From: Blasia pusilla
Lineage: Eukaryota
Reading direction: 5' to 3'
DNA: 64,000 nucleotides
Assembly (NCBI GenBank): GCA_050084515.1
Contig: CM114271.1
Coordinates: 47,740,001 to 47,804,000, forward strand
Shown: in pieces, positions 6,993 through 59,759 of the stretch
Numbering within the stretch: position 1 is the stretch's first letter
How the letters are laid out: each line of letters starts with the position of its first letter
Translations under genes and position numbers: made by a program
Notes under the pieces: generated by a model
Told to the model about the DNA's origin: nothing
The model's database searches: none
What the model saw: only the letters and a program-made list of their open reading frames with translations

Positions 6993-9090
6993 TACGGTAC
7001 CTACTATAGCCTGCGTGCTCTCTACTGCTCGTCAAACCTGCACGAATATGCAATATAAAGACACGATTAGCTACTAGACTGATGTAAACTCTGTCGATAT
7101 GATAGCTTCTTTGGCTAGACTAAAATCCACTTGTTCATGCTCTAGAAATACCCTACCACACACGCCACGTAAGCATGCCAATCTGTCTGACCGAGTTTTT
7201 GGATGACATTATTTTAGTTTCCTCTAACTTCCTGAGCAAAGGTGGCAATAAGTCCCAACATTCCGCATAACTTCAGAAATTGACAGCCCGACTAAAAGAG
7301 AATTTTCCCATTTCGTAAAACCAAGTCTCCAAAGGCTTATAGCTTTCAAATCAGCTACGGGAAGACGATTAATTTGAAGTAAGTTCGAGAGTGGCGCCGG
7401 GACGGAGAATCGATGCGGCAGACTACGAAACTCAATTCTGCCCGAGAAGTAACGAATAGAAAACTCTCTCGTAACACAGTCTTTCCTTTACAATGAAAAT
7501 ATGAGGAAACAGATGCCAGTCACTACTTTGCGAGCGTTTCTTGGGAAGAGAATTTCCTTGAATGAGCGCTTAGTCTTCCAAACGGGTAGAAAATGGAAAC
7601 GAAGAGAAATGTCTTGCAATCGACCAGCGTCCTACGGCCCCACCCCCGGTTAACGTCTTAAAACATCCTCCGAGTGAACCGAACACCAACGAAAGATAAT
7701 TGCCTGTACTCGACGCGTGGCTTATCTTAAAGCATGCGACACTAGGAGACTACAAATGTAAGGGGTGGGCGTCGAAGACCTCAACACTCAAACGAAAGGA
7801 ATCCACCGTCAACATCTCCATCTTACCGCGTGCAAGACATAAACTCTTTCGAACGAAAGTACGTACATCTTCAATATCTCCATCTCGTCAGCATGGCACA
7901 TCCCCCACACAATCGCGAAGTCCCTCAAAACAACAGCGACTCCTCCCACACGCGAACGGTTTCGCCGCACAAGCACCTTCCTCCTTCAGTTTCTTCTCCA
8001 AATTGCAGGCAATGACCCGAATTATTCACAATTGAAGAGACAGAAAGACGATCAAGAACACACACATCGCCTTTCAAGCACAAACTAAATTTCCCCAACA
8101 GAACGAAATCACCTCTCTCACATCCAGCGATTCCACCACAGCCACACGCACCATTACTGTCCCTCCGTCCTTCGAAATCTACCTACAGCGCCGGGATATG
8201 TACAATCGTAAACACCACGGGACGCAGCGAAGACCCTCTACTGCGGAAACGGACGGTTGGTGGATGCAAAATCGCGAATTCCCGGGGAGGGGCCGCGGGC
8301 AGCGTGAAGCGCGAGATGACGAGGACGCGCCTCGTCATCTTATGAAGAAGCGAGTGGGAAGGTGAGAAGTCAGGCGAGTGGGAGGGACGGCTTCTCAATC
8401 GGTACCAGTAACTCTAGTGGTACTCCATTATTTTTTTCTTCTCGCAAATGTGATGATACTACTTGACATAGTATCCTAGTTAGGGGCATGTCTTTTGACA
8501 CTAAATTATCTAGTGTATCAAATCGAATAAAATCTTTTTCACTACACATTAATAGGAAGGTGTCCATTTTGCAATCAAGGTGTGAAACATAACCAATTTG
8601 TAATTACAAACCTGCATCAAAGTTAGTCCCTTGTTCAAGGACTAATCAAATAGGGAGGGAGAGTGTTCATTAATGTCCCCCTTCGGCCTTTGATTTTGGC
8701 CCTCAATTCAAACATGGGTATGAACTTCAGATCGGTGTTTGACTAATTATTCATCAAAATGGCTTGGTGGGGGCTTATTACACATTATGCAACTTTTGGT
8801 TCCCAAAACAAATCTTGGAGCTTGGAATCGCATTTCGTGTCTCATGGCTAGCGTTTATTTTAAGTCTTGACTTATGTTAGGCATCTCATGGTTGTCTTGC
8901 CAATCATTCCATTTCATGACTAGTCTCGTGGTGTCTTGCCCATCTTGACTACTCGCTAGTTCCTTGGTGCTTGGCTCTAAGATCTCAAACCTTGCTTGCC
9001 TTGCCTTTGTTCTTGTGAGTAACTATGACCTAAGGCTAATCTTAGGAAAGATGCATGTCTCGCTTAGTATTAGTCTCCCACCGGTTCCGT

Positions 9091-10360
9091 TGTCGTGTCG
9101 AGAGCCTTTCTTCGAGCAAGGGCGGGCCTTCTAGCTGCGGTAGATGCGGTCGATGCAAGGTGAACTCTCTAATAAGTTCTCCTTTTTCAATACAAAATTA
9201 TGATGTACACTCTCCATTCTCTCACGACAGATATCACAAATGGAAGTGCCGAGGCGATCACTTCTTCGTAACATCGGACCCCGAAATTCCTAACTATAAA
9301 ATCCCTATAAACTATTTTACGCTTGTACACAAGGAAGATAGCACAACTAGTGTTAAACCCTACTTGAGCAGGCCTATTGACATCCATGGATCGCTATATA
9401 AGGACATACAAAGTACAATCCCATGTCCTTCCATATGTGACAATAGGAAGAATCACCGGAGTTGGAGATTGCATGACCTGGTTCATGAACGCCTTCCGAA
9501 AGTGATAAACTAAATAGCGAGTGAACCAGTGCCTATCCACAAAGAGTACCTTAAGGTAAGGATTGAGGAAAAGAAAGTCGGGCACAACTCGTGCTCCACC
9601 CCTATCCATGCTTGACAGACATTCTCTACTCTCCTCAAGAATGGGTTTTGGCGGGGTTATTCTCCCAAGAGGGGTAATCCACTCTCATTGGGAAAGTAAC
9701 AAGCCAAAACATCCGCTATTTTAGTATGACTAAACTCTTCTAGGGTGACAAACCTCTCATCCCCACACACACACACCACACTCTAGAAACATCTCGAAGA
9801 ATAGACCATGGTCAAGTTATTCTCCCAAGAGGGGTGATCCACTCTCATTGGAAGAGCAAGCAATCCCAAAGCCATACACTCAAGAGAGACACGAGAGACT
9901 CAAGATGTGGAATAGAAGGTGATGAACCCTTGAAGGTCCCTCCTCTTTATATACTCACAAGGGATCCACAAGAGTATGAAATAGAGCTTATCTTATCTTG
10001 TGTCACATGGCTTCCTCTCAAGGCTTAGCCAATCATATTTTGACACAAGTAGATTTCTTCTTATCTCTTCCAAAATATCCTCTTTTACCCACTTGATATT
10101 TTCCAAATTACTCCAACTAACCTAACCACCAACCAAGACTACTTTTGCTTTTCATTAAAGCAACTACTTTACTTTTATAAAGTCATCTTTTATTTATTAC
10201 CTCATTTTCCTAAAGTTGGGCTCGTATAAAAGAGGCACCATAAAGAGGTTTAAACATAAGAATCTCCTTTTTCTAAGCCAATTTACTTAATACTAATGAA
10301 ACTCTATCTAACACTTAATGACGAAGGAGTTTACATACTGGTTGATTTTACTATACGACA
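9091..10360 (-). mobile_element. Solo LTR of family A (same family as 44107-52605)
   Basis: Termini TGTCGTGTCG...CTATACGACA; reverse complement of the LTRs at 44107-45381 and 51331-52605; 4-bp target site duplication (TSD) CCGT at 9087-9090 and 10361-10364. Confidence 0.93.
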
Positions 10361-10622
10361 CCGTCGCCATTCCTAGTCTAGTAGCTAGCTAGTTTAGGTT
10401 TTGAATTTGGTGGATCACACCATAGTCTTTCCTACTTGGACCCACGATCATGACTCGCTTCCTAGATCCTTGCCAGCATGAACTCCATAGACTTATATAT
10501 TTGTGACGTCATGTATCTGCGATATAATATTCATTTTATAATAGAGATTTTGGGACAAAAATTTACAACTACATTCGGGGAGAATTTGCAAGTCTCAAGA
10601 GCTGCACTACAACCATAACAAA

Positions 10623-12675: not shown

Positions 12676-15600
12676 ATTTGAAGTCTTGCAACACCTCTTG
12701 TGCGTGTTCCAGATCTGCCTCCACAATCCAAGTCACCTCTTTCACATGTTAGCCTTTCCACTTGACCAAGTACTTGTACTTGTTGGCTCTACGCCTCGCA
12801 CGCAAGATGGTCTCCACCTCAAACTCCAGTTCTTCACTTACGATTACCGGCCGTGGTCTCAACGCCTGTCTTTGCTCAGGACGCTCATTATCCTAAAGAT
12901 ACTTCTTCAACAATAACACATGGAAAGTGGGATGTATCTTGAACTCTTTTGGCAGCTCTAGTGTTTACACATCCTCAAACTGGTTTGCCTTAATCACATA
13001 CAGTCCAACATACTTGGCAGATAGCTTCGCAGAAAACTCAGTCGGAAGAGTGAGATTCTTCACACTCAACCACACTTGTTGTCCAACTTGGAATCTCACT
13101 TGATGCCTGAGTTTTTTAGCATGCTTCACATACCTCAGTTGAGCCTTTTCAAGGTTTCTCCTTGCTCGCTCCTCTCGTTCTTGCATTTCCACTAACAAAC
13201 CTTCAGCCATCACTTGTCGGGTCGGTGTTGATGTAGTACCCTTCGAAAGGGCTAGGTCAAGAGGCCCTTTTGGCTCACGTCCATAAGCCAGGAGAAATGG
13301 TCAGTTGCATAATGTTTGGTGGAGTTGTAGTAGAACTCCGCCATACTCAACCACTTCACCCAATCTCGTTGGTCCGCGCTCACGTAATTCCTTAAGTATT
13401 GGTTCACCAGGGAGTTTACCTTTTCCGTTTGCCCATCCGTCTGCGGATGGAAGGCCGTGCTGAAACTCAGCTTGGTCTCAAACCGCCTGAACAAGTGTTT
13501 CCAAAAGGCACTGGTAAACTTTGGAGTCCGATCTGAAACAATACTCCTTGGCAATCCGTGCGCGCGCCACCAACTATCCAAGAAGAGTCGAGAAGTCATA
13601 TAGGTCATGGTTGAATCCACCGTGGGCACAAATCTCTTCAACTTACTGAACCGATCAACTATCACAAGTATAGCGTTGTATCCCTTAGATTCTGGAAGAC
13701 TCGTTATGAAGTCCATACTCACAATGTGCAAGGGCCCGTCCGAAATCGGCAAGGGCCCTTTCTTTGCATAAGAAATCCTGTTCGCCTGCCAGGTCACACA
13801 GGTCTTCACATATTGAGCAACATCTTCTTTCATGTTGAGCCAGAAGAACCTTTTAGCCGGAACAACTAGCGTGGATTTCTCCCCTTTATGTCATGCCAAG
13901 GGTCCATCATGACATTCCACTAACATCTTGGTTCGTAGTTTGCCTTCGCCCACATAGATCCTGATCTGCTTGAACCTTAGTAAACCATGTCTCAAACTTA
14001 TGTTGGCCACCTTCTTGCCCTCCTTCAACTTCCTTAGGTACTCGCTCGCCTGGGTGTCTTTCATGTATCCCTCACGAGTCCTTTCCAGATCTGTTTCCTT
14101 AGGGAACATTGCTCTCAAGACTTGTGTTGTTGATGGCATGTCCTCATCCCTGCGACTCAACGCGTCTGGAATGACATTATCCTTCCCTGACTTGTGGATC
14201 AGTTCCATATTCATCAATGCCAAGGTATCATGCCATCTTAGTTGTTTCGGTGTTACTCAATCCTGGGTCTCAGAATACTTGAGCGATACGTTATCGGTGA
14301 ACACTCGAGTCCTATGAAGTCCCAAATAGTGACGCCACTTCCTCAACCAATGGACCACCGCAAACAACTCTTTTTCATGAGTGGGCCACCTTCTCTTGGT
14401 TTTGCTGAGCTTCTTACTCTCGTAGGCTACAGGTCTTCCTTCCTGTACCAACATTCCTGCAATCGCAAAGTCACTAGCATCTGTTTGCACCTCGAACGGC
14501 TTGTCGAACTCTGGCAGCCTTAGCACTGGCTCTTGCAATAGGATCTCTTTGACTCAGTTAAACGCATCATTCACTTCTTGGGTCCAGGTCGTGTTAGCAT
14601 ACTTTGCGGTCCTATCTGTGAGAGGTCTCACAATACCCAAAAAGTTCCTCACATAGGTTCGGTAGAACTGCACCGTGCCGATCAACCTCCTCATTCCCTT
14701 CACCGTGGAAGGCGGTTTCCACTCAATGATGGCTTTCACTTTGTCCATATCTCGACTAAATCCATCTTTGCTAACCACGTGACCCAAGAACTTGATCTTG
14801 CGCAACTTGAACTCACTCTTATCCCTATTTGCATACAACTTGTTCGCCCTTAGTTTTGAAAACACCGCCCTCAAATGTCGAGCGTGCTCTTCCAGTGACT
14901 TTGAATTGATGAGTATATCATCAATATAGATGATCATGTACTCATCCGTCTCCTCATGAAAAATGGATTTCATCAATGTGATGAATGTTGAAAGTGCATT
15001 ACATAAACCGAAGGGCGTCACCACAAACTGGAACGAGCCATATCTTGTTCTACACACAGTCTTTTCCACATCTGCTTCGGCAATCCAAATCTGGTAATAT
15101 CTTGATTTCAAGTCAATCCTTCTAAAGTACTTTGCCCCTGAAAGTCTATCCAAGAGGTCTTCAATCCTCGGAAGAGGGTAATTTTTTCTCACCATAATTT
15201 TATTCAGCGCACGGTAATCCACACAGAGTCTCATCTTCCCATCCTTCTTCTTCACAAAGAGAACAGGCTGGTTCTAATGTAGCCTTTCTCTAAGAGCTCA
15301 CTTAACTGCTTTTTCAGCTCAAGCAGCTCCTCTTGATTCAATCTATATGGTGCCTTAGAAGGTGGTTGAGATCCGGGAATGACCTCTATCTTGTGATCGA
15401 CAACCTTATGCGGTGGCAACTCGTTCAGAAGCTCATTCGTCAAGACATCACCAAACTCCTTGACTACTCTCTGTAGCAGTCCTAGGATTCCCCTTGAAGC
15501 CGCAATGTGATCCCTGATTTTCTCGCTAGGGGTGTTCTCCACTAGTCTCATTAAGCAAAGGAATACATCCTCCAACTCGGTCAAACTCCTCCTTGTAATG

Positions 15601-19390: not shown

Positions 19391-19484
19391 CCCTCCTCGA
19401 GCGTCCGGATCTCGCTGCTACCTCGGATTTTCCCCAAGCATCCGGTTACTCCCACAACCCCAAGTTCTTGCTCACCAAGGATTA

Positions 19485-27327: not shown

Positions 27328-27409
27328 AATGGATCCAATTCTGTAACACATTCAATTCTGTTGCAATATGTTACCGGATTTGGGAAGTAGAGGGTTGTGC
27401 ATCACACTT

Positions 27410-36570: not shown

Positions 36571-36571
36571 A

Positions 36572-43690: not shown

Positions 43691-44106
43691 ACACTACCAC
43701 ACAATGGGTGTGGTATCCACTGGGGTCAACGTCTCCACTCTAGGAGCCCGATCGCCACCTGACTCTCGCTACTCCGGGATAAAGGCATGACTCCACGCCT
43801 GCCTCACGAGGTCGTCGGCACTCCTCTATAGTTCTCGAGTCGTACCCCACAATGGTGAAGAGGTCTCGCCAACATGGGAAAAGACACCCGCCATGGCCTG
43901 TCTCTTGGTGGGACTATCCACTACTGGGACATCCTCTGCAAGTGCGTTCCTCTCCAACAACTCTCTTGGCCAGCTAACACTACCTGTGAAAGCTGCCAAC
44001 GTGGTCACTAACTCGTCTCCTGATCGACCATCTTGTCCCGCAAACTGCACGGGTAATTGACTCATTCGCCCATCACCTGAACGCCATCCCTGGCGATAAG
44101 CAACGG

Positions 44107-45381
44107 TGTCGTATAGTAAAATCAACCAGTGTGTAAACTCCTTCGTCATTAAATGTTAGATAGAGTTTCATTAGTATTAAGTAAATTGGCTTAGAAAAAG
44201 GAGATTCTTATGTTTAAACCTCTTTATGGTGCCTCTTTTAACAACGGCCCAACTTTAGGAAAAGAAGTAATAAATAAAAGATGACTTTATAAAAGTAAAG
44301 TAGTTGCTTTAATGAAAAGCAAAAGTAGTCTTGGTTGGTGGCTAGGTTAGTTGGGGTAATTTGGAAAATATCATGTGGGTAAAAGAGGATATTTTGGAAG
44401 AGATAAGAGGAAATCTACTTATGTCAAAATGTGATTGGCTAAGCCTTGGGAGGAAGCCATGTGGCACAAGATAAGATAAGCTCTATTTCGTACTCTTGTG
44501 GATCCCCTTGTGAGTATATAAAGAGGAGGGACCTTCAAGGGTTCATCACCTTCTATTCCACATCTTGAGTCTCTCGTGTCTCTCTTGAGTGTATGGCTTT
44601 GGGATTGCTTGCTCTTCCAATGAGAGTGGATCACCCCTCTTGGGAGAGTAACTTGACTATGGTCTATTCTTTGAGAGATTTCTAGAGTGTGGTGTGTGTG
44701 TGTGTGGGGATGAGAGGTTTTTCACCGTAGAGGAGTTTGGTCATACTAAAATAGCGGAAGTTTTGACTTGTTACTTCCCCAATGAGAGTGGATTACCCCT
44801 CTTGGGAGAATAAGTCCGCCAAAACCCATTCTTGAGGAGAGTAGAGAATGTGTGTCAAGCATGGATAGGGGTGGAGCACGAGTTGTGCCGACTTTCCTTT
44901 CCTCAATCCTTACCATGTCAAGGTACTCTTTGTAGATAACCTTTGGTTCACTCACTATTTAGTTTATCACTTTGGGGAGGCGTTCATGAACCAGGTCATG
45001 CAATCTCCAACTCCGGTGATTCTTCCTATCGTCATATATGGAAGGACATGGGATTGTACTTTGTATGTCCTTATGTAGCGATCCATGGATGTCAATAGGC
45101 CTGGTCAAGTAGGGTTTCACACTAGTTGTGCTATCTTCCTCGTGTACAAACGTAAAATAGTTTATAGGATTTTATAGTTAGGAATTTTGGGGTCCGATGT
45201 TACGAAGAAGTGATCGCCTCGGCACTTCCATTTGTGATACACAATCGTGAGAGAATGGAGAGTGTACATCATAATTTTGTATTGAAAAAGGAGAACTTAT
45301 TAGAGAGTTCACCTTGCATCGAGCATCTACTGCTAAACTAGAAGGCCCGCCCTTGCTCGAAGAAAGATTCTCGACACGACA
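44107..45381 (+). repeat. 5' LTR of family A element
   Basis: TGTCGTATAG...GACACGACA, near-identical to 51331-52605. Confidence 0.95.
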
Positions 45382-45384
45382 AAA

Positions 45385-45400
45385 TGGTGCTTCCAGAGAG
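45385..45400 (+). promoter_or_regulatory. Primer binding site (non-Met; possibly tRNA-Thr)
   Basis: TGGTGCTTCCAGAGAG three bases after the LTR end. The tRNA identity is from recall of tRNA-Thr acceptor stems and has not been verified. Confidence 0.6.
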
Positions 45401-45445
45401 CTCTTTGAGGCGGTAGTTTGTGTTTGCAAGTTGAGTCTTATCAAG

Positions 45446-48400
45446 ATGACTACTTTTGGGAGGACTTCATCAAAGGGAATTGAGGGGGCTGAGGATCTTC
45501 TCCGAACTTTGACAACATTGTTGAGCCAACAAGGAGGAGTTCACATCGGAGAGCAAAGATTAACAAGGGCTCTCAAGCGATTGTGAAGAAGTTGGGAGAT
45601 TTGATGGCGGGAACATCACCAAGTATGTTCAACGAGCTAGTGCGTCTATGAGATGGAGGTAAATCGGCGTCATCCCGAAGGTGATATGGTGTCAAGTTTT
45701 GAGTTAGGTTGTAATACCGAGATCCGTAGTCAAGTAAAGAAGTTGAGAGCAGAAAATCCAACCTCATGGAAGGATCGATGCACATGATTCTTTGAAAGAG
45801 AATTCTTCGATGATGATGTGGATCGGGTGACTAAGAGGAGTTTTCTAGAATGGATAGACCAACGTCCAGGAAGGGAATGACTCCAAATGAGTTGTTGCGT
45901 GAGTTTGAGAAGCGGTTTTTCAGCTTTCTCCCGAAAGGGCAACTCTAGACTTGAGGAAAACCAAGTTATTCCTTGAGGCCAGATGAGAATTTGGAGGACA
46001 AGCTTTTCATAATGTTGGCGGACAAGAATGAAGAAGGAGGTGTCACACTAATTGGAAGAAAGTGGAAGAAGCTGTTGCTATCCTCACAAAGCAAAGTCGA
46101 AGTAGAGGTAGAACCACCAGTATTCAAGTCGGAGGTACCAATTTCAAATCCATTGCCTAAGCCCATGCCGAAAGAAAGCTTGAAGATTCTACCATTGATG
46201 AGTTGGTGAAAGGTTTGAGAGAGTTGAGAGTAGAAATGGTGAGCTTAAACTTGATAGGAATCCTAGTGTTGGTGCTCCTTCAACAAGTAAGAACTTTGTG
46301 AGAAGATGTATATGGTGTGATAGTGTTGAGCATCAACGTCGAGAATGTGAGGAATTTTCAGAAGCTCTTAGAAATGGAATAGTAAACTTCAAAGATGGGA
46401 AGATTCATTCACAGAGACTGGTATGCCGTTGAATACCAACTTTGGTAGAGGAGGTATGAAAGGATTAGTGAGAAGTCAAGTAGGAGTTGCCACTCGACAT
46501 TAGATTTCGACACCTTTGTAGTAAAAATTGAAGCGCCTATTGTATCTCAGTAGCTAAAAGTGAATCATAAGAATTTCCTCAAGAAGTTATGATACTGAAG
46601 AAGGGGCGAGACTATCCGTCATCCGATTTGGATGGGATGATCCAGTGGAAGTCTGGGTGTGTTAAAGCATACCTAGCACAAGAGAAACATGTGAGTTGGC
46701 AAGATGCTAGTGTGGAGGAGAAGAGAGACGCAGCGACAATGATGGTGTTGATCTTTGAGGAAGCTACAAGAAGAGCAAGGATCTTAAGAAGAAAAGGACA
46801 ACCGGAGGCGAATAAAACCATCAAGAGAAGAAGGACCTTCCACATTTGAATCTGTGAGGGATTCTCATGTCAAAGAAGCAGGACAAAGGAGAAGAATTGA
46901 GGTCTCCTCGAAGACCAAGGGTAAGACTCCTACATACAAGTCGATCTGACGATATCGAGACAAGCACCTAATTTAAAGGAGATTCTTGAGGAGAGGATTT
47001 TGGATGCGAAAATAGAGTTTTCTTTGAGGGAAGTCTTGGGCATAGCCAAACGTGACTTTCATGAGTTGATCATAGATGTGATTAAAAGGAAGAGGCAGAT
47101 GACTGCAGATATGGTGATGGTGAGAGCTTTGGATACTAACATCACAGAAGAAGAAGATGAAGAGCTTTGCCAAGTGTTTGGACAAAAGCTTGACTTACGA
47201 GGAAAAGAGGCGAGAGTAGGAGAAGCCTTGACAGAACAAGGTGAAGAAAGGCATAATGGTGGCCACTATTTCGATCATATTGGCGCGTGCAACGACGGAG
47301 GCTAGAGTTCGACTTGGCTCTCTTCAAGAGTCAGTTCTGCTCGTTGATCATGGTTCGGAGATCAACATCATGTCGCGAAGTGTGTACGACAAAGGGATGT
47401 GGCCAATTGATACAGGGCATGGATGGGTACTACGAGCGGCTAACAACCAAAAAGGTGAACTCTATGGTGCTTGTCCATCCGTCAAAACTCGTATCGGAGA
47501 TGTGTTGATTGAGCAAAATTTCTTTGTTTTAAGAATGGAGCTGCTTATCTTGTGATTCTTGGGCAACCTTACATCACAGAATCTAGAATGGAGACCAAAG
47601 TCATGGATGATGGGTCTCATTATGCCCGTATTAGAAGTCAGGATGGAACAAGATCGGTTCAATTCCTTCTTGCATTGAGTAGGTCATGAAAGGAATAGAG
47701 AGAAGTTGAGAGATGGTCCTATGAAGGTAGAGAAAGAGTTTTCGGATTTTTAGTTAGCACTCCTATAGAGCGGGAATATGGGGGTGCAGAGAAAAGAAAG
47801 AGTCTTCCGCTAGTAGAGGGGGAAGAATCATATATGTTTAGGTATGGGTTTTCTCAATGTTTTTCTTCGTGGTCTAGTAGATTCCAAATGATGAAAGAAA
47901 TGAATGAAAAGAAAAGACGTTTTATAAAAAAAAGGAGGGTTTGTTAAAATGTGAGGGTGTTCTATTAGATGAAGAGTTCATTAGTGGGATGTATGAAGAA
48001 GAGGGTTTTGGAGATAGTCTTGAAGAGGTGTTTACCCAGATGAACACCGATTCGCTGGATAGAAGTGTGATTGCAATTCACTCGCGTGAGTTGCAAGAAG
48101 AGATATCAAGGTTCATGGAAGGAGAAAATGAATATGAATCTACGGAGAAGGAAGCGGATGGGCACGGGTTTGAGTTTGATTTAACATCCCATGGAGGCAC
48201 AAGTGCACACAAAATACAAGACAAAGTGGCCCGGAAGGTGAAACCAATGGCTACTCAACTACCTAGAAGGATTGTGGGAGACAAGTAGAACGTGCATCAA
48301 TGGAGCCAAGTCTGCGGGATGTCAAGAAGATAGGACACAAGTTCACAGAAGAGACGCTAGATCGTCTGCAAATCGGAGGGGGTGAGTTTCTCACAGAAAT

Positions 48401-51230
48401 TGAAAGAAAATGCTTTCGGGAGATGTTAAGGAGACATGGTAAGGCTTTCTCTTTTACTACACAAGAAATTGGTTGTGTAGACACGAATGTGGTGGCACCG
48501 ATGGTAATTTTCACAGTTCCACATGTGCCTTGGGATTTGAAACCCATACCAGTACCACGAGCTATGATTCCCAAGCTGATTGAGTTATTGAAGGAGAAGA
48601 TGCAGATGGGTATCTTAGAGCCATCTATGGGGCCTTACTCGAGTCGATGGTTCACTGTGCCGAAGAAATCAAGAGCTCTCCGGTTCATTCAAGATATGCA
48701 ACGGAAAATAAGGTAACCATTCAAAATATGGGAGCAGGGCCTAGAATAGATGAAGTCGCAGAAGCTTTTGCAGCCCGTGCTATCTATTCTATAGGAGATT
48801 TGCACTCGGGATATGATCAATTTCAATTAGCTACAAAGAGTAGAGATATTACCACTATACGCACTCCACTTGGGCTTGTAAGAATGTGCACATTACCTCA
48901 AGGAGCAACAAATTCTGTCGCTCACATGCAGAGTGCAATGAATAAGATCTTGAGAGAGTTCATTCCTGAGAAAACCATTCCTTTTGTAGATGATATCCTA
49001 TAAAGGGTGTGCAATAGAAGATAGGTTTGAGAGGGTTGTGAAAGATGGCTGTAGAAAGTTTGTGTCTGATCATATTCGAGATGTGGATATGATCCTAACA
49101 AGACTAGAAGAGGTCAATCTTACTCTTTCTGGAGAAAAAGTGTAGCTTTGGGGTTCCTCAGATCGTGGTAGTGGGTCATCTTTGTGGAGAGTTTGGCTGA
49201 AAACCAAATCCAGCAAAAGTTGATATCATTGGGAGGATACGAGAATGCGAAAACGTCACCGAAGTGAGAAGGTTTTTAGGAGCTTGTGTGTTCTATCAAG
49301 TGTGGATTCCTCATTTGGGCCACATATCTGATCCTTTGTATGAGTTGTTGAGAAAGAAGAAGAAGTTCACTTGGGAGAAGAAGCAAAGAGCAGCAATGAT
49401 GCAGTTGAAGGAGGCATTGAAGTCGCCACCAGTTCTACGACAAATGAGCTACGAATGCGGATGACCTATTATCATCACAGTGGACACTAGCCCTATTGCT
49501 ATCGGATGGGCAGTTGGGTAGGATGACGCGGAAGGAAGAAGATTTGCGACAAGGTTTGGAGCTCGTACACTTACGGAACGACAGAGGAGGTACCCTCAAG
49601 TAAAGAGGGAGCTTTGGGGAGTTGTAACTGCAATGAAAGCTGAGAAGGAGTATCTTATGGGAGCCTATGTATTGCTTGAGGTTGATTGTCTACCTTTGTT
49701 AGGTATGATTGCGATTTGTACGACTCCAGATATAGCCATGCTACGTTGGATAGCCTACATTAGGTCCTTGAATCCACAATTGAAGCATATAGCTGGGAAA
49801 GAGAACTCAATAGCTGACATGTCTAGAGCTAGATTTAGTCAAGAAGAAGATATGGAGGCAACTGAGATAGATGAGGATGATGCACATGTGTGGCAAGTGT
49901 TATCTCAAGAACGAGGTGGCATAGAGGATGTTCTAGCCTTCAAAGAGGATTTGTATGAGGGCAGGTTAAAAGAAATTGGGCGCTATTTAAGCACTCTGCA
50001 AAGAGATGGAGGGTGGACAGAAAAGTTCTTCAAGGAGATTCGGCACAAGGCGTATGGCTATCTACTACAAGATGGATATCTTTGGAAAAGGCCAAAGAGG
50101 AAAGATGGAATGCCCTTGAGGGTGGTGGATGACAATGGGACAAAAATGGAAGTGCTCAAAGAATTCCACAATTCTTTATGGGCAGGTCACAGAGGTACTT
50201 GGGCAACTTTCACCAAGATAAAAGAGAGGTATTGGTGGAAAGGCCTATATAAGGATGTTGAGAGATATGTTGGGTCGTGTGTTGAATGTCAGTTTCAATA
50301 AAAAATCAGAGTGAGAGATGGACTTAAACCCACGTATCCTTTGTCTATTCATCATCAATGGGTTATAGATCTAGTTGCTATGCCACTAGGTCTTTGGGGA
50401 ATGCGTTACCTGGTCCTAGCACGAGAAGAGTTGTCCAACTTTGTAGAAGGGAGGGCTTTACGGGCTAAAACAACAGAGCCTATATGTCGTTTTATTCTAG
50501 AGGATATTGTTGCTAGATATGGGAGTGTCGGGAGAATCCGTGCAGATAGAGGTGAGTTGAATGCGGAGGAAGCACGAGAGTTCTTCAGGAGATATGGAGT
50601 CGATTGAGATTAACAACCTCCATGAACAGGAGGCAAACGGCAAGAGCGAAGGGGACATCCGCCAATCATTCAAGCATTGGTAAAGGCGTGTGGAGATCGT
50701 TATGATGATTGGCCTAGATTACTTCCATTTGCTTTATGGGCAGATAGAACCACTCACAGCACCGTTATAGGGTTCATGCCTCTGAGTTGACAGTCAAAAG
50801 CCGATAATGCCAAAGCAGAAGGAGATATACCCACTTTGATGGGTTTGTCGTGGGACGACGGGCTCAATAGGAAGAGCTCCTACAACTTCAAAAAAATGCA
50901 CTAGAGAGCGGGAAGAGGATATTGCGAAGCGTTAGTCGAGAATGAAGGAAGCAAGGTTGAAAAATAAGGAGCGCATCGACAAAACTCGCCGGCTTCGGAA
51001 GGAGCCGATAAGAGAAGGAGATTGGGTCTTGGTGCACGACAAGCGACCTTGACAACCAAAGATAGTACACCAAGAAGTTTGCAAGTCGTTGGTTTGGTCC
51101 ATATGTTATAGTCTTTGCTTTTGACAATGCCACTTACAAACTACGTGAACTAGATGGCACAATTCTCAAGCGCCCATTGCGGGGAAAAAGGGTCAAGATT
51201 TTCCGTGAGCGTGAAGGATTTCTTGATTTC
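45446..51230 (+). pseudogene. gag-protease and pol (RT, RNase H, integrase) of family A, with many 1-nt frameshifts
   Basis: Zn knuckle CIWCDSVEHQRREC; protease LLVDHGSEINIM; RT DLHSGYDQF, LPQGATNSVAHMQ, FVDDI; RNase H TVDTSPIAIG; integrase H..GH..C..C, WVIDLVAMP, IRADRGE. Confidence 0.9.
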
Positions 51231-51330
51231 GATTGAATGTGTCTACAGGCACAATATAAGTAAGTCTATAGCAAGAAGTCTTGATGTTTTTGGAGATCTG
51301 GGAGGATGTGCAGGGTTTGGAGGGGGTGAA

Positions 51331-52605
51331 TGTCGTATAGTAAAATCAACCAGTGTGTAAACTCCTTCGTCATTAAATGTTAGATAGAGTTTCATTAGTA
51401 TTAAGTAAATTGGCTTAGAAAAAGGAGATTCTTATGTTTAAACCTCTTTATGGTGCCTCTTTTATGCGGGCCCAACTTTAGGAAAAAGAGGTAATAAATA
51501 AAAGATGACTTTATAAAAGTAAAGTAGTTGCTTTAATGAAAAGCAAAAGTAGTCTTGGTTGGTGGCTAGGTTAGTTGGGGTAATTTGGAAAATATCATGT
51601 GGGTAAAAGAGGATATTTTGGAAGAGATAAGAGGAAATCTACTTGTGTCAAAATGTGATTGGCTAAGCCTTGGGAGGAAGCCATGTGGCACAAGATAAGA
51701 TAAGCTCTATTTCGTACTCTTGTGGATCCCTTGTGAGTATATAAAGAGGAGGGACCTTCAAGGGTTCATCACCTTCTATTCCACATCTTGAGTCTCTCGT
51801 GTCTCTCTTGAGTGTATGGCTTTGGGATTGCTTGCTCTTCCAATGAGAGTGGATCACCCCTCTTGGGAGAGTAACTTGACTATGGTCTATTCTTTGAGAG
51901 ATTTCTAGAGTGTGGTGTGTGTGTGTGTGGGGATGAGAGGTTTTTCACCGTAGAGGAGTTTGGTCATACTAAAATAGCGGAAGTTTTGACTTGTTACTTC
52001 CCCAATGAGAGTGGATTACCCCTCTTGGGAGAATAAGTCCGCCAAAACCCATTCTTGAGGAGAGTAGAGAATGTGTGTCAAGCATGGATAGGGGTGGAGC
52101 ACGAGTTGTGCCCGACTTTCCTTTCCTCAATCCTTACCATGTCAAGGTACTCTTTGTAGATAGGCACTGGTTCACTCACTATTTAGTTTATCACTTTGGG
52201 GAGGCGTTCATGAACCAGGTCATGCAATCTCCAACTCCGGTGATTCTTCCTATCGTCATATATGGAAGGACATGGGATTGTACTTTGTATGTCCTTATGT
52301 AGCGATCCATGGATGTCAATAGGCCTGGTCAAGTAGGGTTTCACACTAGTTGTGCTATCTTCCTCGTGTACAAACGTAAAATAGTTTATAGGGATTTTAT
52401 AGTTAGGAATTTTGGGGTCCGATGTTACGAAGAAGTGATCGCCTCGGCACTTCCATTTGTGATACCTGTCGTGAGAGAATGGAGAGTGTACATCATAATT
52501 TTGTATTGAAAAAGGAGAACTTATTAGAGAGTTCACCTTGCATCGACCGCATCTACCGTAGCTAGAAGGCCCGCCCTTGCTCGAAGAAAGATTCTCGACA
52601 CGACA
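51331..52605 (+). repeat. 3' LTR of family A element
   Basis: Direct repeat of 44107-45381, preceded by a polypurine tract. Confidence 0.95.
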
Positions 52606-54202
52606 ACGGTCTACTCCTAGAAGTCAAGGATAAATCCTTGGGGATATAACACTATACTCCCCACCAACACATTATACGACTCACCTGGTTTCGTATTCGC
52701 ATATGTGCGCACCATAGCACTATCCGTCGCATGCTTTGGCTGAACTCTGACAATTATCTCTTATCGAGTCATATACTACGTGGGTGACACACCCCCAATT
52801 GAGGTCTGTATGTGGAAGGGACAAGGCTCAATGTCGGCCTTCCGTAACCCCAACACTAAATTCGCCGCCTTCCCTAACATCAAGGGTTGCTCTCTCGAAT
52901 CAAGTAGGATGCACTACGAGTGGTATATTGTCCCCGTCGGACTAACCAAGTGAAATACTCTAGCTCTGTTATCCAATAACACTACTCCAGGTGTCACCAC
53001 AGCTGGCATATCTACCAACTTCACCGGGTAGTTGAGATTGACCCGCCAGAGAGGATCGATGGGTGGCAAGCCAGGGTTCCATAATCATTCACATTATCGG
53101 AGGCACTACACACACCATCGATGGTGCCTCGACGACCATCGGTGAATCCCATACTAGCAAGATCCTCATCCCGGTCAGGGTAAGAGGTAGAAGTTGGAGC
53201 CACACTAGCTGCTCGCGGCTGCGTGCCTTCCCTGAGCTGCATCATTGTCATGGCAGCAATCCTTTGCTCCAACTGATCGATGCGTGAGAGAAGTGCCAGC
53301 TCTGGTGCTCCTACTCCATCTCCTCTTGTTGGTGGTGGTCCTCTACCACCACGTCCACGAACAACTCCTCGACCTCCTCCAAGACGACCGCCCCGAGGCC
53401 CTCAACCTACCTCTGGACATGTCTCTTGTCATGTCTTTTAGGATAGATGAGTGAGATCTAGTAGAGCACCTTCATGAGTAGTGGAGGACATGCTTTGTAG
53501 GTAGAGGATGACCTGCTGCGGCCCCGGGAAACCTTAGAGAGCAGGTTTCCCCTTCGTTTCGGCTCATTTGGAACCATATTTAAGAACTTACTATTTTAGG
53601 TCAGTACCATTTTGAGTATATGATCAACTTTCTATTTTTGGTAAGTGGTCCTTGACCTCCTACATGAGGTCAAGAGCCAAGGAGGTGACTTTGGAGCATA
53701 GGTTACCATGGAGAGAGCTTGGGAGAGGGGAAGGGTATACGTCAAGGAGAGAGAGCTTGAGAGCTCATTCTCTCTTTGACGGCATGAGGCGGCAGAGTTA
53801 TGGTCTTACTCGCCTTATGTGTGTAATCCAAGCCTCACATTAGGAGAGTAGGTTTGGTTTGACATTGAGAGAGACATGTGAGAGTGCACACATTTGAGAG
53901 CTATGGTGTTGAGAGAGATTGGATCTTCATTTACAAAGAGAGAATGAGTGAGTGAGAGAGCTTCATGGGGGAGCTCGCTGGTTGCTTGATGTTTGGTGCA
54001 GGTTTGAGGGACAGTGTTCCCCGCTTCATGGCTCATGGGAGTGCTCACCGAAGCAAGAGCCGTGCAAGTTTGCTGTTTTGCTTTGCTGATTTTTTGTACG
54101 GGAGAGTGGCACGTGGAAGCACTGCCCAATTTTTTATAGGAATTGAGTATGGGGGCGGATTGCTCCATGCCGGTGCTCTCGAGAGCATCATGTAGCTTGC
54201 TG

Positions 54203-54489: not shown

Positions 54490-57416
54490 TTTAGGGTTAA
54501 AATGTTCAAACCCTTTACCAGCCGCCGTGCCCGCGGCAGCCGTCGCCATCATAGTCACTGTCAATGGTCCACCATCAACGGTCAACCATCACTATCAACG
54601 GTCCACGGTCGGCGCCACCGCCGCCTACCGCTGCTTAGAGCGGCGTTCGGCCGTTATCCACCCTTGGTTGCCATTGCCGCCATTACGGAGTGGAGGGTCT
54701 TCCACAACGACCATTGATTCTCTGACTTGCACTGCCGCCACCACGTACTTTGTTTTGGCCGCCACCAACATCGCAGTTTTTTCATCAACCAATGATGGCA
54801 AGTGACCTCGGGTTATGGTGTTTGAGTTCTTATTTTATGCTGCTATGTTGTGATTGGTAGCCGCTGGACGACGATTGAGTATTGTGCCGTGATGCCCGTA
54901 GCCGCAACGCACCGCCGATTGCCGCGTCGTGCCGCTCATGGCTGCACTGCATTGTCTCGATTGCGGAGCCGCTCCTTGAATTGCTGATTGAGGAGGGTAT
55001 CCCGCCAAGTGCCGCACCCCATTCTTGGGTGCCGTGTCGTTTGTAGCCGTTCCCTCGTGCCAATGCCGCATCGTACCGTTGAGCTTGCACCGCACATCGA
55101 GGAGGTTTGAGCAGCGTTAGTACAAGAGGAGTACGACTTACTGATCGGAGGAGTTATCTTCATGACCCAAGTTGGGGTCAAGATTTGCAGTTGCCGAGGA
55201 GCGACATCGACATTATTGTCAGGTTACCCACTCTAGTCTCTTACCCTACACGTGTGAGGGATTTCCGGGTATGGGGAAGTTATTTGGGATATTGGGTTTT
55301 GTGCTAATGCTACGAGCATCGATGATGTATGGGTTTAGGGGACATAGATGTGTATGGGATGTCCACAGTTGAGGAGGGTTTGTCGATGAGACGATAGATC
55401 AGCTGATTTGCCTCATCACACTGCTTGTTGCCGCACAACACACATCTCAGTGAGAGAGTGCAGATTGAGTTCCGCATGTTTATTTTGAGTCATTGAGGGA
55501 TTACTTTCGAGATTGAGAGTGATCGTGTGAGAGGGGCACAAGGGCCATTACGGCGTCCTTTCAAGATTTTGAGAGGCGAGGTAGTGGACATGAGAGTAGC
55601 TCATGAGGGTTTACCCAGAGTGGTGCGAGGTTTTGAGGATCTCCATGTGAGAGACCACCTTGATCTCCTTCCGTGTCATCTTTAGACGAGGGGGAATGTG
55701 TAGAGGAGTGTGTTAGGGATCCACCGTACACATTGAGTGGCCCTACGAGTTGGGCGTATGAGATGGAGGACCGGGGTAGAGGACCGCATAGGTTTTCGGG
55801 TGTTGTAGGCACCATAGAGCTACACAACTTCATTGCCGAGTTTAGGAGTTGGTGTGACTCATAGCGGGCTAGAAACTCTAGAGAGTTCAACACGTTTATA
55901 ACATGGAACAATATGTTTTAGCATTTAGAGGGGGCGCCCATGGACGATTACCATGAGTTCTCCCACAGACATGCCCAAAAGATTTAGGCATAGTGACTCT
56001 ACTATGACGCACACTATGTGTCATGGACGGAGCCGTTCCCAGATGAGGAGGAGGAGTCAAGAGAGGCTTCTTCCTCTTCCACTAGTGATATTTTAGGAGG
56101 GGTCACTCGCACTACAGCAGTGGCATCGTCTAGTCGGGTTCATCCTAAGTTCAACCCCGTCGTTGAGTTCTTCGCTGAGTTGAGGGCGAGCTACCACGGA
56201 TTACGGAAGGAGAAGTTACGGAGCATCCACGACTTCCAGAGGCGCCCGGGTGAGAGTTTGCGTGAGGCTTACACTCACTTGCGCCGGTTGATCAACGTCA
56301 CTCAAGGGGTGATAGAGGCTCAGGCTATCAAGTCATGGTAGACGATGCTAGACCGGACCCTGCGGACACGAGTGCAGGAGGGATGCTTCGTATGAACACC
56401 TCCCCTACGTTGAGAGATGTTCTTAGGACCACCAAGAACATTGAGCGCAACATGGCGGAGGAGAGCGTAGCCACCATGGGTTCGGAGCGAGAGCAGTCAC
56501 GATTGTTTGCACCACCAGTGCAGCAACGTGGACTCCAAGATATGTCGACTGTGGCACCACAAGCTCAAGGAGGATATCGGAAGACCATGCCGCAGAGACC
56601 CGCGCCTTCATATGCGGCTCAGCAATAGCTGCCTACGATTACTTGTTGGTCATGTGGTGGGGCCCATCATCAGCGCGATTGCACTCATCAGGGTTATGGA
56701 CATGTGCCTCAACATGGCGGAGGAGATGGTGTTGTACCAAAAGGTTATCAGTGTGACAATTGTCAGAGGTATGATCACACATGGACTAGGTGTTTCAGTT
56801 TATATCCTAAGTTACATCCGGATGGAGGGCCAGAGAGAGCACCAGAGTAAGAAGTCGGTCTCGTGGGCTAGAGATCGTGCACCAGGTGGTCCCGTTGGGG
56901 GATGAGGAGCTGGAGTTTCCCGACAAGGTCATGGAGCTGCCCATGAAGGAGGTAAAGTCCCACCACCTAGACGCATCAAAGGAGACACCGAGCGTGAGGC
57001 TGGGATGGCTGCTCAGATACACCAACTACAGGAGCAGATTGCCGCTATGGCATTGAGGTAACTCCATGTCGGATCCGTGGTATGGACATCATATGGAGCA
57101 GCCAGAGATATGGAGGATCCTGGTTGGATGTGTGGGATTGACTAGATGGAGGTCGTCGTAGTTATGACGCGTGAAGCAGCCGTAGAGTTGGATTCACAGC
57201 GAGGGAAGCCAGAAAACATACTAGGCTTCCTCTGTCTTTCACGTTGTCCAATGCGATGAGGACCCCATCGATGGGTCCTGATCATAGTTCTTGGAGAGTT
57301 GATGATGTTGTTGGAGTGCAGGCATGGAGGGAAATGGGAGAAGCGAGTGTGACGACTCCTATTGCTGATGCTCATGAGGGGCATGTGTCGAGCATGTTGT
57401 TGGGGGCGGCCACCGT

Positions 57417-58696
57417 TGTCGTGTCGAGAGTCTTTCTTCGAGTAAGGGCAGGCCTTCTAGCTGCGATAGACGCGGTCGATGCAAGATAAACTCTTTGAGA
57501 AGATCTCCTTTTTCAATATAAAATTATTATGTATATTCTCCATTCTCTCACGACATGTATCACAAATGGAAGTGCCGAGGCGATCACTTCTTCGTAACAT
57601 CGGACCCTGAAATTCCTAACTATAAAATCCCTATAAACTATTTTATGCTTATATACGAGGAAGATAGCACAACTAGTATTAAACCCTACTTGAGGAGGCC
57701 TATTGACGTCCATGAATTGCTATATAAGAACATACAAAGTACAAACCCATGTCCTTCCATATGTGATGATAGGAAGGATCACCCGAGTTGGAGATTGAAT
57801 AACCTGGTTCTTGAACGCCTCCCCAAAGTGATAAGCTAAATAGCGAGTGAACCAGTACCTATCTACAAAGAGTATCTTGACATGATATGGATTAAGGAAA
57901 GGAAATTCGGGCACAACTCGTGCTCCACCCCTATCCATGTTTGACAGACATTCTCTACTCTCCTCAAGAACGGGTTTTGGTGTAGTTATTCTCCCAAGAA
58001 GGGTAATCCACTCTCATTGGAGAAGTAACAAGCCAAAATATTCACTATTTTAGTATGACTAAACTTCTCTAAGATGACAAACCTCTCATCTCCACACACA
58101 CACACATCACACTCTAAAAACCTCTCAAAGAATAGACCATGGTCAAGTTACTCTCCCAAGAGGGGTGACGCACTCTCATTGGAAGAGCAAGCAATCCCAA
58201 AGTCATACACTTAAGAGTGACACAAAGACTCAAGATATGGAATAGAAGGTGATGAACCCTTGAAGGTCCCTCCTCTTTATATATTCACAAGAGACCCACA
58301 AGAGTACGAAATAGAGCTAATCTTATCTTATGCCACACGGCTTCCTCTCAAGGCTTAGCCAATCACATTTTGAAACAATTAGATTTCTTCTTATCTCTTC
58401 CAAAATATCCTCTTTTACCCACTTGATATTTTCCAAATTACCCCAACTAACTTAGCCACCAACCTAGCCTACTTTCGCTTTTCATTAAAACACCAACCTC
58501 ACTACTTTACTTTGATAAAGTCATCTTTTATTTATTACCTCTTTTCTAAAGTTGGGCCCGCATAAAAGAGGCACCATAAAGAGGTTTAAACATGGAAATT
58601 TCCTTTTTCTAAGCTAATTTACTTAATACCAATAAAACTCTATCTAAGACTTAACAAGGAAGGAGTTTACACACTGGCTGATTTTACTATACGACA
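57417..58696 (-). mobile_element. Solo LTR of family A nested in family D copy 2
   Basis: TGTCGTGTCG...CTATACGACA, homologous to 9091-10360. Flanks are CCGT (57413-57416) and TCGT (58697-58700), a TSD with one C>T change. Confidence 0.92.
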
Positions 58697-59759
58697 TCGT
58701 TTTGTATTGCGCTTCTTTATTTTTTGCTTCCGATGTTATGACGTTGGGAGGTATGCCCGCCGAGGTTTTCCGGCTAGCTGCTAGGCTATGTGAGAGTGGA
58801 GTTGGAGTTCCTGCATCACGTTCAGAGGTGATTGCAAAGGAGGTGATAGACCTGCCCTTGGAGCTGATGCTTTGGCCGTCCATGTTAGATTCATGGCACG
58901 ATGCAGCTGTTAGGATGGCAAAGATGCCCACTAGATCCACGATAGAGCGTGCCATGGCTTCTCGTGGTATTGTGTTGTTGCATAAACAAGGAGAGGTCTT
59001 CCAATTGGTGAGTCCCGGAGGTAGAGCTTTTAGTCCGCAACACGCCTTGTTGGATTCAGGAGCGCAATCCTTGATGTTGGGGAAAGCATCATTCAGAGGA
59101 TTGGGCTTCACTAGAGCCGATGTGGAGCGTTGTCCATTCCGGATACAAACATCCTTAGGTGGAGCAAGTACCACACAATATATCACCCGACAGGAGGTCA
59201 TGGTGAGGATTTGCATGGGACATCCTATAGATGAGTCCGTGGTGCGAGCCAAGGCGATAGTGACTGATGTAGAGTCCTACGATGTCTTGGTTGGTGGAGC
59301 ACTGTTATATCCGATGGGGTTTTTCGTCGATTACTAGGAGGAGTCAACGTCCTACAAACTAGGATGGCACTCAGGTGATGGGCGCTTTAGCTCATTACTC
59401 GTTCGATTCACAGGTGCAGTGATCGAGCGGCGGCCAGGAGAGATGGCGACCTTAGCAACATTTAGCAGTGCCATCACTTGGCCTAGTGATTTGATTGAGG
59501 GACATGTCCATGCAGAGGATACTCCCGTTCCTATAATTTCTATGGAGAGGAGTGTCATGGTAGCTGCATCAGTCTATGGAGGAGAGGTGCCGCTTTGGGG
59601 TTCGACCAAGTAGCTTCAACGCTTAGCCACTGAGCATGTGCAGACCGCGCGGAGCGAGACGTTTGCACTAGAGTGTGATGGGTTGTAGAAACCCCATGTA
59701 TGCAGGAGTGCTGCTATGACCCCTTTGGACACCACCCCGATTGTGTGGTGCATCCCGGA

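What the first reader, a model, noticed from the sequence alone, without database searches (positions are those of the whole stretch)
9087..58700. All three family A LTR insertions duplicate the same 4-bp target, ACGG, in the same orientation
Seen: the solo LTR 9091-10360 has CCGT/CCGT, the full element 44107-52605 has ACGG/ACGG, and the solo LTR 57417-58696 has CCGT/TCGT. Read in element sense, all three are ACGG, in unrelated wider flanks (gcgACGGaac, gcaACGGtct, aaaACGGtgg). With uniform base frequencies, two further matches to the first 4-mer would occur about 1 in 65,000 times. Known: most plant LTR elements make 5-bp TSDs with little sequence preference (family C here has 5 bp). Inference: a sequence-specific, non-palindromic, CpG/CCG-containing target, possibly sensitive to methylation.
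Basis: seen in the sequence. Interest (0 to 1): 0.72.

Follow-up and report, generated by a model that had tools for sequence, protein, structure and literature searches.

The report
Retrotransposon that inserts at CpG four-mers
A Ty3/gypsy retrotransposon family in this window really does insert at a preferred four-base site centred on CG, but it uses the site in both orientations, and this preference has already been reported for a similar moss lineage.

Summary
Three family A insertions (solo LTR 9091-10360, full element 44107-52605, solo LTR 57417-58696) carry 4-bp duplications that read ACGG in element sense. One copy has decayed to ACGA. ACGG is not part of the element, because the internal LTR junctions read otherwise. 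Three identical oriented 4-mers are expected about 2e-5 of the time.

Raw reads from two whole-genome runs of the same species label, laid on solo LTR 1, show the preference is family-wide, over roughly 200 LTR copies. At the element's 3' end, 109/104 reads continue with ACGG, 133/159 with ACG plus another base (consensus ACGT), and 145/151 start with a non-A base and have the consensus CCGT, the reverse complement of ACGG. Sequence beyond the four bases is diverse.

The target is therefore a degenerate palindrome, about M-C-G-K, used in both orientations. It is not an oriented, non-palindromic site.

The element is a compact Ty3/gypsy without a chromodomain. Its nearest named relatives are in a liverwort. 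Neumann et al. 2019 already report an NCGN insertion preference for the moss non-chromovirus lineage Phygy. I read this as a new member of a known kind, with a sharper motif. Phygy membership by phylogeny and any link to methylation remain untested.

The parts
9091..10360 (-). Solo LTR 1 of family A (1270 bp)
   Evidence: It is 96.0% identical to the 3' LTR of the full element.
9087..9090 (-). TSD copy at the element's 3' side of solo LTR 1 (CCGT on +, ACGG in element sense)
10361..10364 (-). TSD copy at the element's 5' side of solo LTR 1 (CCGT on +, ACGG in element sense)
44103..44106 (+). Left TSD copy of the full element (ACGG)
44107..45381 (+). 5' LTR of the full element (1275 bp, TG...CA)
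   Evidence: It is 97.3% identical to the 3' LTR (1242 matches, 31 mismatches, 4 gap columns).
45385..45395 (+). Primer-binding-site-like stretch beginning TGG, three A's after the LTR end
   Evidence: The same junction sequence appears as a loose-end consensus in 4 contigs of run X5 at place 9090 (agreement 0.98). The tRNA was not identified.
45683..51233 (+). Degenerate gag-pol, broken by stops and frameshifts. RT is at 48584-49000, RNase H and the integrase zinc domain at 49522-50298, the integrase core at 50302-50604, and the integrase C-terminal module at 51066-51233. There is no chromodomain.
   Evidence: Pfam hits. ORF list. No further domains at E<=0.05. Colinear tblastn matches to P0006 and to the 1981-aa Riccia sorocarpa protein P0037 over 45683-51218.
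51319..51330 (+). Polypurine tract abutting the 3' LTR
   Evidence: Its reverse complement dominates positions 5-30 of the loose-end consensus at place 10360.
51331..52605 (+). 3' LTR of the full element
52606..52609 (+). Right TSD copy of the full element (ACGG)
57417..58696 (-). Solo LTR 2 of family A (1280 bp, the oldest copy)
   Evidence: It is 88-91% identical to the other three copies.
57413..57416 (-). TSD copy at the element's 3' side of solo LTR 2 (CCGT on +, ACGG in element sense)
58697..58700 (-). TSD copy at the element's 5' side of solo LTR 2 (TCGT on +, ACGA in element sense). It differs from its partner by one C-to-T change in a CCG context.

Best explanation
Family A is a compact Ty3/gypsy LTR retrotransposon without a chromodomain. 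Its integrase cuts the target with a 4-bp stagger and strongly prefers a four-base site with CpG at its centre, approximately M-C-G-K (ACGG, ACGT, CCGT and probably CCGG).

This motif is its own reverse complement, as expected from a two-fold symmetric integrase-DNA complex, and the element enters in either orientation. The three ACGG sites in the window are three draws of the commonest variant.

Shown: the 4-bp duplications, the exclusion of ACGG from the element, the family-wide enrichment of ACG- and CCGT-type flanks, and the diversity of the wider flanks. Inferred: that the integrase itself reads the site, through a sharp bend at the central pyrimidine-purine step plus symmetric base contacts at positions 1 and 4, by analogy with retroviral intasomes that make 4-bp duplications. 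Also inferred: that the family belongs to, or is sister to, the Phygy lineage.
For: The window sites are established.

Genome-wide reads: raw reads X23 and X24 were laid on window 8941-10510 at 90% likeness or more. 7179 and 7612 reads were laid, of which 2244 and 2421 lay only partly on the stretch. Summed depth is about 410-1050 over the LTR and about 2-5 in the right flank bins 10372-10477, so there are on the order of 200 LTR copies (my estimate).

Loose ends at the element's 3' end:
- Place 9087, all four TSD letters matched: 109 and 104 reads.
- Place 9088, ACG matched and the fourth letter different, with consensus A on the + strand (ACGT in element sense): 133 and 159 reads.
- Place 9091, first flank letter different: 145 and 151 reads. 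In both runs the + strand consensus ends in ACGG, which is CCGT in element sense.

Agreement over the 30 loose letters is only 0.32-0.37, so the wider flanks are diverse. With the window's base frequencies, random flanks predict a ratio (9087+9088)/9091 of about 0.02. The observed ratios are 1.67 and 1.74, roughly 85-fold higher.

At the element's 5' end (place 10360, 230 and 277 reads) the consensus begins ACGA or TCGA and then follows the reverse complement of the polypurine tract. C and G at letters 2-3 therefore outnumber the polypurine-tract reads. In run X5, 7 contigs at the same place give a consensus that begins ACGA.

Element type: the domain order is RT, RNase H, integrase. No chromodomain was found in any ORF of the element at E<=0.05. 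0 of the 120 listed relatives carry PF00385. gag-pol fills 45683-51218 of the internal region 45382-51330.

[quoted passage not shown] 4-bp TSDs of plant elements have GC-rich central dinucleotides (PMC6911290, passages). Retroviruses enrich flexible YR steps at the centre of the site, more so the shorter the duplication (PMC4422553, abstract).
Against: The genome-wide evidence is at the level of classes and consensus letters. One search listed 24 loose-end rows and left 768 unshown, so the classes at places 9089, 9090 and 10361-10364 are unseen. The joint frequency of CCGT inside the 9091 class is not known; from the agreement value I estimate about 70% per letter.

A moderate orientation bias, with ACGG commoner than CCGT, therefore cannot be excluded. 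All three window copies have the same orientation of the site.

No individual further insertion could be read. No reference Phygy sequence was available, so lineage membership rests on shared features and on elimination. That the integrase reads the DNA directly is an analogy, not a test.
Confidence: 0.8

Rival explanations
1. Oriented, non-palindromic target recognition: the element recognises ACGG asymmetrically and always enters in one orientation relative to it.
For: 3 of 3 window insertions read ACGG in element sense. ACGG is the largest single fully resolved class at the 3' end (109 and 104 reads, plus unlisted classes that match further by chance).
Against: The 9091 class (145 and 151 reads) has the consensus CCGT in both runs. 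Decay of ACGG would not produce that, since it would need an A-to-C transversion at letter 1. ACGT-type flanks are as common as ACGG (133 and 159 reads). Known integrase-DNA complexes are two-fold symmetric and give palindromic preferences (PMC4422553 abstract; PMC5408687 passages).
Confidence: 0.08
2. The shared ACGG comes from copying of a few insertion loci, by segmental duplication or because the LTR sits at one fixed place inside another high-copy repeat. On this reading there is no target choice.
For: The window is packed with other repeats. The left flank of solo LTR 1 has depth of about 16-25, which is low-copy rather than single-copy.
Against: Flanks beyond the four bases are unrelated among the three window copies. 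The loose-end consensus outside the TSD reaches only 0.32-0.37 agreement and differs between X23 and X24. A truly shared sequence, the polypurine tract, lifts agreement to 0.50-0.54, and internal indel variants reach 0.92-0.95.
Confidence: 0.03
3. ACGG is the end of the element itself, or three sites agree by chance.
For: Only three sites are in the window. The LTR end ...ACGACA partly resembles ACG.
Against: The internal junctions lack ACGG. The primer-binding-site and polypurine-tract junctions recur genome-wide as separate loose-end classes. The chance estimate is 2.2e-5. Enrichment in reads is about 85-fold.
Confidence: 0.01
4. The CpG-centred preference is indirect. The element is tethered to, or excluded from, methylated CpG-rich chromatin, and the motif reflects where it can land rather than what the integrase reads.
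For: The site contains CG and CCG, both methylatable in plants. Differences among copies are dominated by C>T and G>A (115 of the 205 listed places in X23). One TSD copy decayed by C-to-T in a CCG context. PMC6911290 reports Phygy elements nested in Tcn1 elements in the moss (passage).
Against: Chromatin tethering gives regional bias, not a base-exact position of CG at letters 2-3 of the duplication. The base-exact register seen points to the active-site complex. No chromodomain or other reader domain was found. The rival could still act in addition to direct reading.
Confidence: 0.08

Closest known systems
Phygy lineage of non-chromovirus Ty3/gypsy elements, defined in Physcomitrella patens (Neumann et al. 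2019, PMC6317226; passages and section 9 read)
   Same: Both are Ty3/gypsy without a chromodomain. Both are short, with the polyprotein filling nearly the whole internal region. Both show a four-letter insertion preference with central CG (NCGN). The host appears to be a bryophyte-like plant.
   Different: Phygy was defined as specific to P. patens, whereas the nearest named relatives here are in the liverwort Riccia sorocarpa (59-66% identity over 259 aa). The motif here is narrower (M at letter 1, K at letter 4). Phylogenetic placement was not tested. The paper's table of TSD sequences (Additional file 1) could not be opened.
Plant LTR retrotransposons with 4-bp TSDs (Jedlicka et al. 2019, PMC6911290; passages read)
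   Same: The logos of 61 nested and 1661 non-nested 4-bp TSDs show GC-rich central dinucleotides and a palindromic character.
   Different: That logo pools families and species and is described as flanked by AT-rich letters. Here the outer letters are A/C and G/T for one family.
Drosophila errantiviruses and their two-ORF derivatives, in the gypsy, ZAM and Idefix groups (Nefedova and Kim 2017, PMC5408687; passages read)
   Same: They show sequence-specific integration into short palindromic or imperfectly palindromic targets (TATA, CGCG, ATAT), read as the duplication itself.
   Different: They are insect elements of a different Ty3/gypsy branch. No env-like ORF is present here. That review calls sequence-specific integration exclusive to errantiviruses, and the Phygy-type case contradicts this.
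Retroviral intasomes with a 4-bp stagger, PFV and MLV (Serrao et al. 2015, PMC4422553; abstract read)
   Same: The mechanism is the likely shared feature: a symmetric complex, a flexible pyrimidine-purine step at the centre of the site, enrichment stronger for short duplications, and base contacts by integrase residues that set the outer letters.
   Different: Retroviral preferences are weak, whereas here the central step is nearly fixed as CG. No structure or assay exists for this integrase.

Membership tests
Ty3/gypsy LTR retrotransposon | Two LTRs ending TG...CA, a polypurine tract before the 3' LTR, and a TGG-starting primer site after the 5' LTR | tested here: met
   The priming tRNA was not identified.
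Ty3/gypsy LTR retrotransposon | pol domain order RT, RNase H, integrase | tested here: met
   RVT_1 at 48584-49000, RT_RNaseH and Integrase_H2C2 at 49522-50298, rve at 50302-50604
Non-chromovirus branch of plant Ty3/gypsy | No chromodomain after the integrase | tested here: met
   No Chromo hit in any ORF of the element at E<=0.05, nor in the intact relatives P0006, P0020 and P0037. 0 of the 120 listed relatives carry PF00385. A different gypsy element in the window does have chromodomain-bearing relatives.
Phygy lineage | RT, RNase H and integrase domains cluster with the P. patens Phygy elements in a phylogeny | not testable with these tools
   No labelled Phygy (REXdb) sequence could be obtained.
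Phygy lineage | Insertion preference for NCGN | tested here: met
   3 of 3 window insertions and the read classes ACGG, ACGN and CCGT
Phygy lineage | Short element whose polyprotein spans nearly the whole internal part, with no extra ORF | tested here: met
   Colinear match to a 1981-aa relative over 45683-51218 of the internal region 45382-51330
Phygy lineage | No second (archaeal-type) RNase H, the domain that marks the Tat clade | tested here: inconclusive
   Pfam found only one RNase H region in the element and in its relatives. No dedicated aRH model was run.
Phygy lineage | Host is Physcomitrella patens, as the lineage was defined in 2019 | tested here: inconclusive
   The host was not identified. 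The nearest named relatives of two unrelated TE lineages in the window are from Riccia sorocarpa at about 66%. No listed hit exceeded 70% identity. Later papers report Phygy-classified domains in a liverwort (PMC12885004, passages).
Errantivirus-type sequence-specific integration | Membership in the insect errantivirus clade, with an env ORF or derivation from such elements | tested here: not met
   There is no room for a third ORF, and the relatives are plant sequences. It works like them but is not one of them.

The most novel reading that the evidence does not exclude
The CpG-centred site could be read in a methylation-dependent way, so that the element steers itself into, or away from, methylated heterochromatin at single-base resolution. 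Alternatively, there could be a real orientation bias of ACGG over CCGT, which would mean asymmetric target reading by an LTR-element integrase. Neither is excluded: the read classes do not resolve the joint frequency of CCGT, and no methylation data were examined.
Probability: 0.15. Interest if true: 0.65.

Novelty: new member of a known kind. Interest (0 to 1): 0.33.

Why it matters
Strong sequence-specific integration is rare among LTR retrotransposons. A 2017 review calls it exclusive to insect errantiviruses (PMC5408687), and for plants I found it stated for a lineage in only one sentence, about Phygy (PMC6317226).

This window adds a second, apparently non-Physcomitrella family of about 200 copies with the same habit and a sharper motif (M-C-G-K). 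It also shows the preference can be measured from raw reads alone.

Practical points follow. Annotation pipelines that demand 5-bp TSDs will miss or mis-trim such families. The fixed CpG inside each duplication gives a built-in marker of deamination. The integrase would be a natural subject for studying how a symmetric complex reaches near-fixed base choice. It does not open a new class of mechanism.

Tried and rejected
- Whole genome: none is held for this window, so no copy-by-copy logo could be built.
- Metagenome contigs: two scans, one with each LTR terminus, gave 0 matches each.
- Viral contigs, with relative P0006: 3 pattern matches, none confirmed.
- Prokaryote genome contigs, with alignment A2: 22 pattern matches and 3 confirmed loci (L001-L003). 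All are short contigs of coding sequence without LTR ends, so they yielded no TSDs.
- Earlier findings of this scan: nothing by sequence, place or words.
- Protein Atlas: only generic RNase H/integrase clusters from mixed animal and plant taxa, with no help on lineage.
- A 5-bp reading of the duplications: rejected.
- Relatedness of the other gypsy elements in the window to family A: rejected. They are 24-32% identical to P0006, against 36-78% for family A.
- DUF4100, found in the gag region of Riccia relatives: not detected in family A's degraded gag at E<=0.05, although that region aligns at 33%.
Full report
**Observation.** An alignment of the four LTR copies with 30 bp of flank on each side shows that similarity begins exactly at TGTCGT and ends exactly at ACGACA.

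In element sense the flanks are:
- ACGG/ACGG for solo LTR 1 (9091-10360, minus strand);
- ACGG/ACGG for the full element (44107-52605, plus strand);
- ACGA/ACGG for solo LTR 2 (57417-58696, minus strand).

The single mismatch is a C-to-T change in a CCG context on the plus strand. A 5-bp duplication does not fit any of the three. Inside the full element, the 5' LTR is followed by AAATGGTG... and the 3' LTR is preceded by ...GGGGGTGAA, so ACGG is host sequence and not an element end. The wider flanks share nothing convincing. With the window's own 4-mer frequencies, the chance of three identical oriented 4-mers is 2.2e-5, and ACGG is rarer than average at 0.0023.

**What the element is.**
- The internal region carries RVT_1, RT_RNaseH plus Integrase_H2C2, and rve, in that order. 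This is the Ty3/gypsy order.
- The reading frame is broken many times, although the two LTRs are 97.3% identical.
- A 1981-aa protein of the liverwort Riccia sorocarpa aligns colinearly from 45683 to 51218, which is nearly all of the internal region 45382-51330. There is no room for an extra ORF.
- No chromodomain was found in any ORF of the element or in three intact relatives at E<=0.05, and 0 of the 120 listed relatives carry PF00385.
- The best listed relatives are unnamed metagenome proteins at 65-70% identity and Riccia sorocarpa proteins at up to 66%.
- A second, unrelated gypsy element at 12.9-19.4 kb is a chromovirus, and its best named relative by identity (66%) is also from Riccia sorocarpa.
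- The other gypsy elements in the window are only 24-32% identical to the family A relative P0006, so family A is the only member of its lineage here.

I infer that the host is a bryophyte-like plant but did not identify it.

**Genome-wide test.** No genome is held for this window. I therefore used public runs with the same species label as the best holders of the LTR and laid two raw-read whole-genome runs (X23, X24) and two contig sets (X1, X5) on solo LTR 1 with 150-bp flanks, accepting reads at 90% likeness or more. 7179 and 7612 reads were laid. Summed depth is about 410-1050 along the LTR and about 2-5 in the right flank, so the family has on the order of 200 LTR copies (my estimate).

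Reads from other copies fit the LTR and then run on into their own flanks. Where they stop fitting tells how many flank letters they share with this locus. At the element's 3' end the listed classes are:

| Place where reads stop fitting | Meaning | Reads (X23 / X24) |
|---|---|---|
| 9087 | all of ACGG shared | 109 / 104 |
| 9088 | ACG shared, fourth letter different; consensus gives ACGT | 133 / 159 |
| 9091 | first flank letter already different | 145 / 151 |

In both runs the consensus of the 9091 class ends, on the plus strand, in ACGG. In element sense that is CCGT. Agreement over the 30 loose letters is 0.32-0.37, and the two runs give different consensus sequences beyond those four letters, so the flanks are many different places.

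With random flanks of the window's composition, the ratio (9087+9088)/9091 would be about 0.02. It is 1.67 and 1.74.

At the element's 5' end, the class at place 10360 (230 and 277 reads) has a consensus that begins ACGA or TCGA and then follows the reverse complement of the polypurine tract. Letters 2-3 are C and G rather than the T and C of the tract, so CG-bearing flanks outnumber 3' LTR junction reads there. From the agreement values of 0.50 and 0.54, I estimate that a third or so of that class are tract reads. Seven contigs of X5 at the same place also give a consensus beginning ACGA.

Limits: 24 loose-end rows were listed and 768 were not. The classes at 9089, 9090 and 10361-10364 are therefore unseen in the raw-read runs, and only consensus letters are known within a class, not joint frequencies.

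**Reading.** The site is not oriented and not non-palindromic. ACGG, its reverse complement CCGT and the perfect palindrome ACGT all occur at comparable levels, and together they fit M-C-G-K, a motif that is its own reverse complement. Decay of an oriented ACGG would not produce a C at letter 1.

If ACGG makes up about a third of insertions (my estimate from the classes), two further ACGG after the first have a chance of about one in nine. The unanimity in the window is therefore a mildly lucky draw from a strongly skewed distribution. A moderate excess of ACGG over CCGT cannot be excluded with these data.

**Mechanism.**
- Shown: a 4-bp stagger and a base-exact register of CG at letters 2-3.
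- Inferred: a two-fold symmetric integrase-DNA complex bends the target at the central pyrimidine-purine step and contacts letters 1 and 4 symmetrically. Retroviruses show exactly this pattern, though weakly, and the central YR enrichment is stronger the shorter the duplication (PMC4422553, abstract).
- Less likely, or additional: tethering to methylated chromatin. Such tethering would not by itself fix the register.
- Consistent with cytosine methylation of the copies, though it says nothing about target choice: C>T and G>A make up 115 of the 205 listed kinds of change in X23.

**Comparison with print.**
- Neumann et al. 2019 state that TSD length is characteristic of most lineages (4 or 5 bp). 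[quoted passage not shown] They describe Phygy as a Physcomitrella-specific non-chromovirus clade of short elements whose polyprotein spans nearly the entire internal part (PMC6317226; passages; section 9).
- Jedlicka et al. 2019 report that 4-bp TSDs have GC-rich central dinucleotides with a palindromic character, and that Phygy nested in Tcn1 was the commonest repeated nesting pair in the moss (PMC6911290, passages).
- Phygy-classified domains are reported in a liverwort (PMC12885004, passages).
- Drosophila errantivirus groups target the palindromes TATA, CGCG or ATAT (PMC5408687, passages).

Family A meets every Phygy feature I could test: no chromodomain, compact structure and the NCGN preference. 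The defining test, phylogenetic placement, could not be run, and the host does not look like Physcomitrella.

**Verdict.** This is a new member of a known kind. What is added is a sharper motif, evidence that both orientations are used, and a probable second host group.

**What led nowhere.**
- Two metagenome scans with the LTR termini gave 0 matches.
- A viral-contig scan gave no confirmed relative.
- The prokaryote-genome scan gave 3 short loci without LTR ends.
- Earlier findings of this scan held nothing.
- The protein Atlas gave only generic clusters.
- The supplementary TSD table of PMC6317226, which could refine the comparison at letters 1 and 4, was closed.

Noticed in passing
window 44107-45381 compared with 51331-52605, 9091-10360 and 57417-58696: The 5' LTR of the full element differs from its 3' LTR mostly in four or five short patches of several adjacent bases (alignment A1 columns about 165-171, 871-876, 1174-1179 and 1257-1270). 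In these patches the 3' LTR agrees with both solo LTRs. This looks like local patchy change or assembly error rather than point mutation, and it inflates the apparent LTR divergence.
   Followed up: no
window 45382-51330: The gag-pol of the full element is broken by many stops and frame changes, with at least six frame switches in pol, although its LTRs are 97.3% identical. The copy was probably defective when it inserted, or the region carries sequence errors.
   Followed up: partly
window 20340-22810 and 31574-37668: Several nested long inverted repeats (78-95% complementary) enclose a region with a Transposase_21 (tnp2, CACTA-type) ORF at 34222-34611. Many long ORFs without Pfam hits lie on the minus strand at 22283-31658. 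This is probably a large CACTA-like DNA transposon.
   Followed up: no
window 12968-19417 (minus strand): A different Ty3/gypsy element with gag, RT and integrase. Many of its relatives carry chromodomains, and its best named relative by identity is again from Riccia sorocarpa (66%).
   Followed up: partly
window 41007-43407 (minus) and 61085-63338 (plus): Two diverged copies (73-75% nucleotide identity) of a further gypsy family in inverted orientation. They bracket the full family A element and solo LTR 2.
   Followed up: no
window 59925-60308 (plus strand): An ORF with a borderline hit to the C-5 cytosine DNA methylase family (E 1.2e-4, 22.0 bits, exactly at the curated cut-off).
   Followed up: no
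window 9025 to 10427: One contig of run X5, from another study of the same species label, joins 9025 to 10427 and skips 1401 bases including solo LTR 1. The letters between are unknown. It could be an allele or paralogue without the LTR, but the joint does not sit at the TSD, so it is not a clean empty site.
   Followed up: no
window 9552-9555: About 100-120 reads per run stop fitting here, with a consistent consensus (agreement 0.92-0.95). Solo LTR 1 lacks three bases that the other three window copies carry (A1 columns 848-850), so most genomic copies probably carry them too.
   Followed up: partly
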